Part shown: piece after piece, positions 23,607 through 38,680 of the stretch
Position numbering within the stretch: the first letter of the stretch is position 1
How the letters are laid out: every line of letters starts with the position of its first letter
Virus record (IMG/VR): IMGVR_UViG_3300032290_001263
Coordinates: 1 to 45,040 of that record
Direction: 5' to 3' (one strand)
Length of the DNA stretch: 45,040 nucleotides
Origin: a virus
Lineage: Duplodnaviria; Caudoviricetes
Notes under the pieces: model-generated
Database searches by the model: none
The model's input: only the letters and a program-made list of their open reading frames with translations
Told to the model about the DNA's origin: nothing
Translations under genes and position numbers: made by a program

Positions 23607-23790
23607 TATATGTTGTGCCCACCCCCAATCGTGGGGGGTGGGCCGACTTCGTCGGCCTCGCGAAAGTCAAGTAAAATAATAAAATATCTTTTGTAGGCGT
23701 GATTGCTTGACATGGGCAAAATCCAGTGTATAATGATGGAGTAGTCGCAAGTAAGCGATAAGTTTAGTAGACCTTTTTGGAGAATTTAGT

Positions 23791-24000
23791 ATGAATGGCT
23801 TGGAAATTCGTCAAAGCGTTAACGTTACTGTCAGTTCTGCTTCTGCATATGGTTCGAGTTTTAACGGAACCGTGGAATTGACGTTCGAAAACGATCAAGG
23901 TGTGAAAGTAAATATTGGGATGGGTAGCTCACTAGCTGAGAAGCTGGTTGCGAGCCTTCGTGAAGCAGTTAAGAATACAAAGCCGAAACGCAAGCGTTAG
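23791..24000 (+). CDS. Hypothetical cassette protein
   Basis: 69 aa, GGAG RBS, promoter 23707. Confidence 0.7.
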   Translation: MNGLEIRQSVNVTVSSASAYGSSFNGTVELTFENDQGVKVNIGMGSSLAEKLVASLREAVKNTKPKRKR

Positions 24001-24179
24001 GCCGATTGACATGCTGAGTGCAAGGCCCATCCCCACCAGCGGGGGGTGGGCCGACTTCGTCGGCCTCGTCGCTGTCAAGTAAAATATAATTCTTTTTTTT
24101 GTTAGCATGATTGCTTGACATGGCGTGAATGTAGTGTATAATTGTGGCATAAAGTTAAACAACTCTCTTGAAAGGTAGA

Positions 24180-24986: not shown

Positions 24987-25371
24987 TCCAAATCACGATA
25001 CTATATCCTAGACCCTGTCCCGTGAAAGCCGGGGCGGGTCGCTGCAAAGCGGCTCCGGTGCTCATAATATAGTAGGTTGAATTTCGGTAAAGCTTGACGT
25101 TTTACTTGCCAACTGCCTAGTGCGGAAAAAATTCATCGATTATGTTGGTCTGCCCTTGACAATGGGGTGGGCCGACGTAGTCGGCCTCGATTATACCATG
25201 CGTTCCGTCCTTGTCAACCGAAATCCGGAAATTTTCTATAGAAAAGTAAAATCTAAAATTATCCCTCAATTGCTTGACATGGGGAAACCATATGGTAAAA
25301 TCATTGCATAAGAGCGAAAGACAGTCAGTCGCTCAAAAGTTAAAACGGTTTTTTGATCAAAGGGGCAAATT

Positions 25372-29227: not shown

Positions 29228-29298
29228 TTCGCTTCTGGTGTATATTGGTGACGCAACCCGTTACGGGTGGAGTGTAGGTTCGATTCCTACAAGCGAAC
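29228..29298 (+). ncRNA. tRNA-like RNA with shortened anticodon arm
   Basis: TTCGCTT/AAGCGAA acceptor, GTAGG-TTCGATT-CCTAC T-arm, ACCCG-TTA-CGGGT arm (13 nt instead of 17). Confidence 0.7.
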
Positions 29299-30717: not shown

Positions 30718-30809
30718 ATTATAACAGGCCCGAACGAATTGTCAAGCCCCATTTTAATTTTATTTTTTTTCTTCCATATCCTTGACATGGCGAATAGTCG
30801 TGGTAAAAT
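30718..30809. promoter_or_regulatory. Back-to-back divergent promoter pair
   Basis: Leftward TTGACA-N16-TATAAT (30745-30718) and rightward TTGACA-N16-TAAAAT (30782-30809) around a T-rich core. Confidence 0.8.
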
Positions 30810-31615: not shown

Positions 31616-31689
31616 GGGAAGTTAGCTCAGGCGGTTAGAGCACGGTTCTTATAAAGCCGGGGTCGTTGGTTCAACTCCAACACTTCCTA
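31616..31689 (+). tRNA. tRNA-Ile(TAT)
   Basis: GGGAAGT/ACTTCCT acceptor, GCTC/GAGC, CGGTT-CTTATAA-AGCCG, GTTGG-TTCAACT-CCAAC; no encoded CCA. Confidence 0.9.
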
Positions 31690-31728
31690 CTTTTAGATTT
31701 TTAGGTACTATTTTTTGGAGTTTAGGAT

Positions 31729-32226
31729 ATGAAGATTCACGATGTATTGGCTAAAATCGATTCTGCTAAAATTGTTAGCTTGCGAACCAAGACACAATGT
31801 AAACTACTCGCAAAATCAAAGGTAGAGTTTCCGCAAGGAGTAACCAAGATTTCACTACGCAATGGAATCATTGGTGCAAGCTACGAAAACGCCGTAAACA
31901 ATAAGCTTGAACGCGAAGGCGAACTGCCGGACTTCAAAGCAGAATCGCTCTGGAAGGGCCGGGGACGTAGAGTTAGTAAATTCATCGTACAGCATATGGA
32001 CACGCAAAAGCAGTATCTAGCTTTTCTTCCAAAAACTAATGCTGACGGGCACAATATTACAAAGTCGATTTATATCGACAATGCTACCGGGCTTGAAGTA
32101 CCATACAACAATGTTGAAAAGTATATTCCAAGCTACGGCTATAGCTCGTCAGTTGTTAACTGGCAAGTTATCGAACTTTCTAATGTTATTGGTTTGAAAT
32201 CAGGCGATATCGAATTCAATGCTTAG
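31729..32226 (+). CDS. Hypothetical phage protein
   Basis: 165 aa with GGAG RBS. Confidence 0.75.
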   Translation: MKIHDVLAKIDSAKIVSLRTKTQCKLLAKSKVEFPQGVTKISLRNGIIGASYENAVNNKLEREGELPDFKAESLWKGRGRRVSKFIVQHMDTQKQYLAFLPKTNADGHNITKSIYIDNATGLEVPYNNVEKYIPSYGYSSSVVNWQVIELSNVIGLKSGDIEFNA

Positions 32227-32233
32227 AATTAAT

Positions 32234-32368
32234 GTTTCATTCGTATAGTGGTATTACACTATGTTTGTAAGTTTATAGTATTGATTAGTCACCAATATTT
32301 ACTTTCATATACAATCCTGACTAGATTAGTATATTCATAGGACGGGTGTTCGATTCACCCATGAAGCT
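32234..32368 (+). ncRNA. tRNA-like RNA with 72-nt structured insert in anticodon loop
   Basis: GTTTCAT/ATGAAGC acceptor, GTA-TAGTGGTAT-TAC D-arm, CTATG/CATAG stem, GGGTG-TTCGATT-CACCC T-arm. Confidence 0.75.
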
Positions 32369-32374
32369 TTAAAA

Positions 32375-32623
32375 ATGTCACTACATAGATTAACAGATGA
32401 ACATCCATTATCAAAAAAGCTCGAAAAATTATTCGGGCTTATGGATGAACTTGGGATAAGATTCCATTTTGATGCTTTACTTATAGAAGTAGAGTACGAG
32501 TCCAAGCTTTATAGGCTTATGGATTTAGAAGCACGGCATTGCGATGGTTTATCCAAGGTAGATATATTGCCACCATATATGGAATATAAACTACTGTACG
32601 AAAAATTCGAAAAGGAAGATTAG
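32375..32623 (+). CDS. Hypothetical protein
   Basis: 82 aa, co-oriented. Confidence 0.65.
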   Translation: MSLHRLTDEHPLSKKLEKLFGLMDELGIRFHFDALLIEVEYESKLYRLMDLEARHCDGLSKVDILPPYMEYKLLYEKFEKED

Positions 32624-32624
32624 A

Positions 32625-32849
32625 ATGAATGTTTGGGTGCTTACACGAGAACACAATGATTACGATCAGCATGGAGAATACTTCGTAGCTATTTTTAGAT
32701 GTAAGCCTACGCGAAATGCTATTGGAAATGTTTTAAATATTGATCATAAGCGTGGTGAAAAACTCATAGATCATATTCTTGCTGGCGGTGGTCGTCGTGA
32801 TATCGAAGATGAATGGTATCACCTAAGAGAAGTAGAATTTTCTGAATAG
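32625..32849 (+). CDS. Hypothetical phage protein (WVLTREHNDYDQHGEYF motif)
   Basis: 74 aa, AAGGA RBS, followed by terminator. Confidence 0.75.
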   Translation: MNVWVLTREHNDYDQHGEYFVAIFRCKPTRNAIGNVLNIDHKRGEKLIDHILAGGGRRDIEDEWYHLREVEFSE

Positions 32850-32854
32850 ATTCT

Positions 32855-32888
32855 AGCCCGTTGCATTTAGTTGCTTCGGGCTTTTTTT
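32855..32888 (+). terminator. Intrinsic terminator
   Basis: AGCCCG...CGGGCT plus T-run. Confidence 0.75.
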
Positions 32889-32904
32889 ATTTCTCTGTTC
32901 TGAA

Positions 32905-38394: not shown

Positions 38395-38487
38395 GAGTCG
38401 TTGGTGTATTGGTAGCATTGCAGGTCAGCGGGAAACCGTACCGGAGAGACGTTGCCGGGGGAGTAGGTTCAACTCCTACACGATTCT
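38395..38487 (+). ncRNA. tRNA-like RNA with anticodon arm replaced by branched GAAA-capped arm
   Basis: GAGTCGT/ACGATTC acceptor, GTGT-ATTGGTA-GCAT D-arm, GTAGG-TTCAACT-CCTAC T-arm; GCGG-GAAA-CCGT inside; promoter 38357. Confidence 0.7.
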
Positions 38488-38568: not shown

Positions 38569-38680
38569 GGGTTGGTAGCTCAAATTGGTGAGAGCGGCTC
38601 TTGATTAAGGAGTGGCGTGCATGATCGCGGGTTGATCGCCGTAGATGGCACTAGTGTGGGTTCGAATCCTGCCCGACCTA
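38569..38680 (+). ncRNA. tRNA-like RNA with 42-nt variable region and non-canonical anticodon loop
   Basis: GGGTTGG/CCGACCT acceptor, GCTC/GAGC, GCTCT-TGATTAA-GGAGT, GTGGG-TTCGAAT-CCTGC. Confidence 0.7.

What the first reader, a model, noticed from the sequence alone, without database searches (positions are those of the whole stretch)
32234..32368. tRNA scaffold carrying a kissing-loop domain in place of the anticodon loop
Seen: acceptor, D, anticodon stem and T arms are intact, but 72 nt (32264-32335) replace the 7-nt loop. They form two hairpins (GTAA..TATTG/CAATA..TTAC and ATATAC-AATC/GATT-AGTATAT) whose loops contain TAGTCA (32286) and TGACTA (32318), exact reverse complements. The insert is too short for group I/II introns. 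Inference: a natural tRNA-scaffolded functional RNA, or a new tiny intron type (removal could leave a TT-TGT-A loop).
Basis: partly seen in the sequence, partly recalled or inferred. Interest (0 to 1): 0.82.

Follow-up and report, generated by a model that had tools for sequence, protein, structure and literature searches.

The report
Phage tRNA body carrying kissing hairpins
An uncultured freshwater phage has an optional gene shaped like a threonine tRNA, with 65 extra bases that are predicted to fold into two hairpins whose tips pair with each other, so it likely makes a stable non-decoding RNA built like phage T4's unexplained species 1 RNA rather than a spliced tRNA.

Summary
The tRNA arms, both hairpins and the complementary loop hexamers are in the sequence as described. 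Correction: the 7-nt loop TT-TGT-AA is still there (32264-32270); 65 nt are added behind it. A kissing fold this stable arises in 3 of 1500 shuffles, but no full-length homolog was found, so covariation could not be tested. The body descends from tRNA-Thr but lost Thr identity (U2:G71, 3-nt variable region). No intron hallmark, intron-less allele or splicing enzyme was found. The gene is optional: 5 of 6 near-identical strains lack it; two relatives keep a deleted remnant with compensated acceptor pairs. Best reading (0.4): an unspliced, non-decoding tRNA-bodied RNA, likely an accessory tRNA mimic. Closest known: T4 species 1 RNA, whose two loops pair with a compensatory change (found here). 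Rival (0.2): an alternative fold exposes a loop pairing 16-19 nt with one of the phage's own early mRNAs. Relic or processing signal 0.25; intron 0.1. The scan has reported tRNA bodies with twin hairpins on other phage DNA before.

The parts
32234..32368 (+). tRNA-bodied RNA gene (G1 to discriminator T; CCA not encoded, as in the window's two ordinary tRNA genes)
   Evidence: missed by ARAGORN and Rfam
32234..32240 (+). acceptor stem 5' strand (pairs with 32361-32367); U2:G71 instead of the C2-G71 of Thr tRNAs
32243..32257 (+). D arm, identical to the D arm of phage tRNA-Thr/Gly/Trp genes
32259..32263 (+). anticodon stem 5' strand (pairs with 32336-32340; can instead pair with 32244-32250)
32264..32270 (+). 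intact Thr(UGU)-type loop heptamer; its last four bases can pair with 32299-32302, which would hide the anticodon
32271..32335 (+). 65-nt insert (cargo)
32279..32297 (+). hairpin 1; loop 32284-32292 holds TAGTCA (32286-32291)
32307..32334 (+). hairpin 2; loop 32317-32323 holds TGACTA (32318-32323)
32292..32310 (+). stretch that is single-stranded in the alternative long-stem fold and complementary (16 Watson-Crick, 19 with G:U) to 23900-23918
32341..32360 (+). 3-nt variable region and T arm
32219..32374 (+). the optional cassette: replaced by 15 other letters in 5 of 6 near-identical strains
30782..30809 (+). nearest strong sigma-70-like promoter upstream (11 of 12 matches); probable start of the transcript that holds the gene
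   Evidence: consensus match only
32855..32889 (+). terminator-like hairpin with T run downstream
   Evidence: z -5.7; not listed by the terminator scan
23791..24000 (+). 69-aa early ORF whose codons 38-43 are the possible antisense target

Best explanation
The gene is a tRNA-Thr-derived body with a 65-nt insert, and it likely yields a stable, unspliced, non-decoding RNA whose insert is predicted to lock into two kissing hairpins and which would act as an optional tRNA mimic that occupies host tRNA-binding proteins. Shown: the arms, the insert, the complementary hexamers, the Thr-type D arm and loop, loss of Thr identity at pair 2-71, compensated acceptor pairs in relatives, absence from most close strains. 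Inferred: transcription from the early promoter at 30782; release by host RNase P and 3' trimming with CCA addition, because acceptor stem and T/D elbow are what these enzymes read (established knowledge); the kiss forms, hides the old anticodon and makes the arm too bulky for the ribosome. Weakest step, no direct evidence: the role as decoy for host enzymes that attack tRNA ends or elbows during infection.
For: Scaffold and hairpins. Body is Thr-derived: 9 of the 20 viral loci with the same D arm are tRNA-Thr, all 9 start G1-C2, this one G1-U2. Acceptor pairs 2-4 differ between the window, L023 and L024 yet stay paired: shape is kept, identity is not. The phage group keeps other non-standard tRNA bodies: 38395-38487 is conserved in G002 with compensated acceptor pairs, and two insert-bearing bodies lie directly before a Ro60 gene in G001/G002. 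Precedent for the fold: in 7 T4-like species 1 RNAs the two loop hexamers pair in 7 of 7, with one pair changed on both sides in 2 of 7; T4 RNAC is a detected RNA of unknown function (PMC9697503 and PMC3014915, passages). A tRNA body with cargo in the anticodon arm is processed and stable in E. coli (engineered scaffold, PMC3753655, passages). The cassette sits in a strain-variable early region.
Against: No full-length homolog in any search, so neither the hairpins nor the kiss show covariation. The insert folds no better than shuffles overall and has a rival fold of equal energy. The gene is missing from 5 of 6 close strains and reduced to a remnant in two relatives, which also fits decay. 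No RNA evidence: the two RNA-labelled runs gave no contig over the gene (not informative, the strain may lack it). No sequence likeness to T4 species 1 RNA (306 of 1000 shuffles score as well), and T4's RNA has no D arm. Nothing here tests the decoy role.
Confidence: 0.4

Rival explanations
1. Decaying relic or mere processing signal: a tRNA-Thr gene broken by an insertion; only the acceptor stem still matters, as a cut site or terminator-like stem in the early transcript (the 3' end lies 6 nt before the next start codon), and the hairpins are chance.
For: Absent in 5 of 6 close strains; relatives keep only acceptor stem, D region and a T run; insert z -0.41; looser kissing rules are met by 3-6% of shuffles; no homolog of the insert anywhere searched.
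Against: All four arms are intact with a perfect T loop; 25 Watson-Crick pairs are used by the two hairpins and the kiss; a fold this good arises in 3 of 1500 shuffles; more distant relatives end the upstream protein as the cassette-bearing strain does (5 of 5 members of two clusters), hinting that the cassette is old.
Confidence: 0.25
2. tRNA-protected antisense switch: the kissing form is a closed state that refolds into one long stem and exposes a 24-26-nt loop, which pairs with the mRNA of the phage's own 69-aa early gene and dampens it.
For: 16 Watson-Crick (19 with G:U) contiguous pairs to 23900-23918, -25 kcal/mol, starting at the first base of the loop of the minimum-energy fold; 15 of 3000 insert shuffles and 1 of 600 loop shuffles match the window as well; the other 5 of 375 natural tiles with such a match are repeats or A/T runs. 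The two folds are about equal in energy. G001 and G002 lack both the insert and the gene. RNase P-processed phage antisense RNAs exist (C4, CI; PMC5499578 passage).
Against: Found after several post hoc looks. The site is in mid-ORF (codons 38-43), not at the ribosome site. The gene seems to occur in strains without the cassette (inferred from equal contig lengths and protein ends). The loops of the two Ro60-adjacent bodies have no target in their own genomes. A captured inverted fragment would give the same match without function.
Confidence: 0.2
3. Tiny new intron in tRNA-Thr(UGU): 65 nt are cut out at 37/38 or 38/39 and the halves ligated.
For: An intact TT-TGT-AA loop on a Thr-type D arm; unexplained tRNA introns are known from Lak phages (10.1101/356790 passages).
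Against: No bulge-helix-bulge at a usable site, no group I U/G pair except at a cut that leaves TT-ATA-TT, no group II start, no hammerhead core; no Rfam match; no intron-less allele in 6 DNA runs; no splicing endonuclease, RtcB or T4-type ligase in complete G001 (the control rang nowhere); product would have U2:G71 and a 3-nt variable region; Lak introns are 79-114 nt with an embedded T loop, absent here (PMC6784885 Table S6, part read).
Confidence: 0.1
4. Y-RNA-like partner of a phage Ro60 protein encoded elsewhere in the genome.
For: Relatives G001 and G002 encode Ro60 with two insert-bearing tRNA bodies just upstream; the window is about 29% of its genome.
Against: No Ro60 in the window or G003; in G001 it lies about 27 kb from this site; no GNCGAAN0-1G or GGUCCGA motif (motifs from PMC4201824); no significant likeness to those inserts (285 and 313 of 1000 shuffles).
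Confidence: 0.05

Closest known systems
Phage T4 species 1 RNA (rnaC) and its Tevenvirinae/Marfavirus homologs
   Same: About 140 nt, phage-encoded among tRNA genes, tRNA-like ends with T arm, two hairpins whose loops hold exactly complementary hexamers (7 of 7 homologs, one compensatory change); function unknown.
   Different: No sequence likeness; T4's RNA has no D arm or anticodon stem and is conserved in about 750 phage records, whereas this gene has a full tRNA body, weak A+U-rich stems and is optional.
'Enigmatic' introns in tRNA genes of Lak megaphages (Devoto et al.; 10.1101/356790, PMC6784885)
   Same: A+T-rich insertion behind an intact anticodon of a phage tRNA, including Thr(TGT); no Rfam intron family.
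   Different: Lak inserts are 79-114 nt, hold a second T loop and have intron-less alleles; their tRNA bodies keep identity elements. Here 65 nt, no inner T loop, no intron-less allele.
Engineered tRNA scaffold (Ponchon and Dardel; described in PMC3753655)
   Same: Acceptor, D and T arms kept; cargo placed in the anticodon arm.
   Different: Natural, cargo and purpose unknown, expression not shown.
Bacterial and phage Y RNAs (YrlA; PMC4201824)
   Same: tRNA-mimic domain joined to another domain; relatives of this phage encode Ro60.
   Different: YrlA is permuted, carries GNCGAAN0-1G and lies within 4 kb of Ro60; none holds here.
C4 (P1/P7) and CI (P4) antisense RNAs
   Same: Small phage RNAs matured by RNase P (PMC5499578 passage); a loop complementary to a phage transcript (recalled for C4/CI).
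   Different: They lack a T loop and, as I recall, target leaders; here a full tRNA body and a mid-ORF match of unproven meaning.

Membership tests
Canonical decoding tRNA-Thr | 7-bp acceptor, D arm, 5-bp T stem with TTCRA loop | tested here: met
Canonical decoding tRNA-Thr | 7-nt anticodon loop closed by the stem | tested here: not met
   72 nt between the strands; ARAGORN and Rfam do not call it
Canonical decoding tRNA-Thr | G1-C72 and C2-G71 identity pairs (established knowledge, recalled), 4-5-nt variable region | tested here: not met
   U2:G71 and 3 nt; 9 of 9 Thr relatives have C2
Bulge-helix-bulge tRNA intron | 4-bp helix between two 3-nt bulges at the splice sites | tested here: not met
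   6 partial motifs, none with an inner helix over 1 bp or at sites that restore a 7-nt loop
Bulge-helix-bulge tRNA intron | splicing endonuclease and ligase available | tested here: inconclusive
   none in G000, G001, G002; host unknown
Group I / group II intron | catalytic core; U before and G at the end (I); GUGYG start (II) | tested here: not met
   65 nt
Lak-type enigmatic tRNA intron | intron-less allele of the same tRNA gene exists | tested here: not met
   6 DNA runs: whole cassette present (1) or absent (5), never the 65 nt alone
Lak-type enigmatic tRNA intron | insert holds a second T-loop/tRNA-like body | tested here: not met
   compared by eye with Table S6 part 4; no inner T arm
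tmRNA | G3:U70 pair, A73, tag reading frame | tested here: not met
   U3-A70, U73; ARAGORN finds none; only a 22-nt T-arm match to Gordonia phage tmRNAs
YrlA-type Y RNA | permuted tRNA domain, GNCGAAN0-1G motif, Ro60 within 4 kb | tested here: not met
T4 species 1 RNA (rnaC) | tRNA-like ends plus two hairpins with complementary loop hexamers | tested here: met
   (layout only)
T4 species 1 RNA (rnaC) | sequence homology to the family | tested here: not met
   no such hit
T4 species 1 RNA (rnaC) | accumulates as a discrete stable RNA | not testable with these tools
   only contigs, none over the gene in RNA-labelled runs
Small self-cleaving ribozymes | match to a known core (hammerhead, twister, twister-sister, pistol, hatchet, HDV-like) | tested here: not met
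   Rfam scan to E 10 over 32100-32500 gave only three chance hits on the other strand; no CUGANGA or GAAA
C4/CI-type antisense RNA | loop complementary to a regulated transcript of the same phage | tested here: inconclusive
   16-19-nt mid-ORF match, about 0.5% by shuffles, no covariation

The most novel reading that the evidence does not exclude
A natural tRNA-scaffolded conformational switch: the RNA is matured as a tRNA, stored in a kissing-loop closed state, and opens into a long stem that displays an antisense loop against one of the phage's own early genes; tRNA bodies would then be a modular chassis on which this phage group swaps antisense, Ro60-binding and structural cargoes.
Probability: 0.15. 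Interest if true: 0.82.

Novelty: new variant of a known kind. Interest (0 to 1): 0.5.

Why it matters
Phage tRNA look-alikes with cargo in the anticodon arm are missed by ARAGORN and Rfam and are usually filed as pseudogenes or unexplained introns. This case ties that recurring layout to a laboratory model: T4 species 1 RNA, a detected RNA whose function is still given as unknown, has the same loop-loop design and here shows a compensatory change in it, so the layout can be tested at once in T4 and E. coli by loop mutation and rescue. If the antisense reading holds, it would be a natural counterpart of the engineered tRNA scaffold used as a regulator. The single gene studied here is weakly supported on its own: no full-length homolog, no RNA data, optional in its lineage.

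Tried and rejected
Homolog searches, all without a second full-length copy except the near-identical record L022/G003 (2 differences in 5202 nt, none in the gene): D-arm 18-mer in viral contigs, 20 loci; D arm plus distant T loop, 62 loci, 3 passed the stem filter: self, one coding look-alike, L079; D loop + TAGTCA + T loop, 55 loci, 4 passed: self, L079 again, L126, L140; both hexamers + T loop, 48 loci, only self has the body; metagenome scan, 120 loci from 42 of 64 parts (scan cut off), 52 passed the filter, 40 distinct, by eye one single tRNA with an insert (L145) and otherwise tRNA plus partial duplicate; GTDB genomes, 4 chance loci; annotated phages, no match over 22% of the query; neighbour-protein searches gave only 3 loci. 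Inserts of L079, L126, L140, L145, G001 (two) and T4 rnaC are not significantly like this one (123 to 952 of 1000 shuffles). RNA-labelled runs X19 and X20 hold only short contigs over the upstream ORF: no evidence either way. I laid 8 of 24 listed runs. tmRNA, Y RNA, group I/II, BHB and ribozyme readings rejected as in the membership table. Two weak promoter-like matches inside the insert (9 of 12) are at chance level. An ATG-started 7-codon frame on the minus strand of the insert has no other copy. The 69-aa protein has 3 clusters of relatives and no usable name. Terminase is at most 27% identical to annotated phages: no family or host assigned. Literature searches gave no paper on a natural tRNA body with kissing hairpins or on a loop-loop pair in T4 species 1 RNA; the old T4 sequencing papers and most subscription journals are not in the library, so this does not show that it is unpublished. 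The DNA behind the more distant relatives of the upstream protein (P0002-P0004, P0037-P0039) could not be fetched, which leaves the covariation test open.

Full report
Setting. The window is a 45-kb fragment of a tailed phage (terminase; about 29% complete) found in freshwater metagenomes. The finding lies in the strain-variable early region, between a 165-aa and an 82-aa ORF of unknown function, downstream of a strong promoter-like site at 30782. No family or host could be assigned.

Observation. The anticodon loop is not replaced: TT-TGT-AA is intact at 32264-32270 and 65 nt follow. The variable region has 3 nt. ARAGORN and Rfam miss the gene. Two Watson-Crick hairpins with 6-nt complementary loops occur in 26 of 5000 shuffles under the strict rule and in 149-311 of 5000 under looser ones; a kissing fold as stable as the observed one occurs in 3 of 1500. 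Against this, the insert is no more stable than its shuffles overall, and the same hexamers can pair within one long imperfect stem of equal predicted energy. The tests are post hoc.

Origin of the body. Of 20 viral loci with the same D arm, 9 are tRNA-Thr, 6 Gly, 3 Trp, one is this gene and one a remnant. Four Thr genes have an acceptor stem that differs at two pairs. All 9 Thr genes start G1-C2; this gene has U2:G71. It is a tRNA-Thr descendant that has lost a Thr identity pair (identity rule recalled).

Three alleles. Near-identical strains in 5 of 6 DNA runs (X2, X4, X7, X8, X15; five studies) lack 32219-32374 and carry 15 other letters; only X1, perhaps the source, has it (8 of 24 runs laid). 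A second record, L022, has it unchanged. Two more distant phages (L023, L024; neighbour protein 85% identical) keep a remnant: acceptor stem and D region joined to the end of the T stem. Acceptor pairs 2-4 differ among the three sequences and stay paired: shape under selection, identity free. No allele lacks just the 65 nt. Protein ends suggest the cassette-type allele is the older one (2 of 10 in the close cluster, 5 of 5 in two more distant clusters), but that DNA could not be fetched.

Not an intron, on present evidence. No usable bulge-helix-bulge, group I or II hallmark or hammerhead core; no endonuclease, RtcB or T4-type ligase in the complete relative G001 (the last had no positive control). 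Lak phage tRNA introns (10.1101/356790 passages; PMC6784885 Table S6, one part read) are longer, hold an inner T loop and have intron-less alleles.

No full-length homolog. Six pattern scans of viral contigs and of the metagenome and GTDB collections for the gene, one for the insert alone, BLAST of annotated phages and two neighbour-protein scans found none; the metagenome scan covered 42 of 64 parts. The kiss therefore has no covariation support of its own.

Closest precedent. T4 species 1 RNA (rnaC) has tRNA-like ends and two hairpins with complementary loop hexamers. In 7 homologs picked the six pairs hold in 7 of 7, the stems vary, and one pair changes on both sides in the two Marfavirus sequences (one event, two related genomes). 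Its function is stated as unknown (PMC9697503, PMC12685909, PMC3014915; passages). My searches found no paper on this pairing; older papers are not in the library. The two RNAs are not homologous: this is 'built like', not 'member of'.

The phage group uses tRNA bodies as a chassis. The window has three more odd tRNA bodies; one is conserved in G002 with compensated acceptor pairs. G001 and G002 carry two insert-bearing tRNA bodies with a shared loop directly before a Ro60 gene. Earlier notes of this scan describe twin-hairpin tRNA bodies on other phage DNA; these are unchecked leads, and none shares sequence words with this gene.

An antisense lead. In the long-stem fold, 32292-32317 is an open loop. 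Its first 16 bases are exactly complementary, 19 with G:U, to codons 38-43 of a 69-aa early ORF at 23791-24000. Shuffles reach this in 15 of 3000 and 1 of 600. G001 and G002 lack both the ORF and the insert. Against: one of several post hoc looks, a mid-ORF site, the ORF seems present in strains without the cassette (inferred), and the Ro60-adjacent loops have no such target.

Mechanism. Most likely (0.4) the gene is read in the early transcript, cut out by host tRNA-processing enzymes, given CCA, and stays unspliced; the insert kisses, buries the old anticodon and bars decoding; the RNA serves as an optional tRNA mimic. Anatomy, ancestry, compensated acceptor pairs and optional presence are shown; expression, processing and the kiss are inferred; the decoy role is a guess from the accessory early-region setting. 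Rivals: relic or cut signal (0.25), antisense switch (0.2), intron (0.1), Ro60 partner (0.05).

Papers seen. Passages: 10.1101/356790, PMC10690425, PMC4201824, PMC7824862, PMC5499578, PMC2330249, PMC3753655, PMC9697503, PMC12685909, PMC3014915. Supplement part: PMC6784885 file 3, part 4 of 8 (other parts may hold more introns). Others only as search listings. The target position of C4/CI RNAs, Thr and Ala identity rules and RNase P substrate rules are recalled.

Verdict. Real feature, new variant of the known but unexplained phage tRNA-like stable RNAs; interest 0.5.

Noticed in passing
L021:909-1047 (T4 rnaC) and L292-L295, L359, L360: T4 species 1 RNA homologs keep two complementary loop hexamers in 7 of 7, with a both-sides change in 2: a probable kissing loop in a classic unexplained RNA.
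   Followed up: partly
G001:C1:91906-92023 and about 92219-92334; G002:C1:23801-23918 and the next gene (L284, L285): Two non-permuted tRNA bodies with a stem and a shared 16-nt loop motif in the anticodon arm, directly before a Ro60 (TROVE + vWA) gene; candidate Y-RNA-like partners of a different build than YrlA.
   Followed up: partly
window 38395-38487 +: tRNA body with extended anticodon and variable arms, conserved in G002 at 84% with compensated acceptor pairs.
   Followed up: partly
window 38569-38680 +: tRNA body with a 35-nt variable arm (Rfam tRNA 35.7 bits); G001 has a different odd tRNA body behind the same upstream motif.
   Followed up: no
window about 29228-29296 +: tRNA body whose anticodon stem is closed by a 3-nt loop, preceded by three hairpins; its D loop is complementary to 11 nt of the insert.
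   Followed up: no
window 25000-25075 +: Twister-sister ribozyme match above the Rfam cut-off (40.9 bits).
   Followed up: no
window about 23610-23735 and 24030-24145 +: Repeated intergenic units of G+C-rich hairpins followed by near-perfect TTGACA-16-TATAAT promoters before single small ORFs.
   Followed up: no
L079 (=L123), L126, L140: Other phage tRNA bodies with 55-81-nt inserts in the anticodon arm; L079 and L140 hold an (A/G)CAGCAAA motif also repeated around L079.
   Followed up: partly
L145: tRNA-Gly(TCC) with a 42-nt insert behind the anticodon in a metagenome contig, probably an ordinary archaeal-type intron (not tested).
   Followed up: no
window 32628-32853: The 74-aa ORF slot is also swapped for 222-428 other letters in close strains.
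   Followed up: no
window 31616-31690 +: tRNA-Ile with the anticodon UAU, rare in bacteria (recalled), conserved in G001-G003.
   Followed up: no
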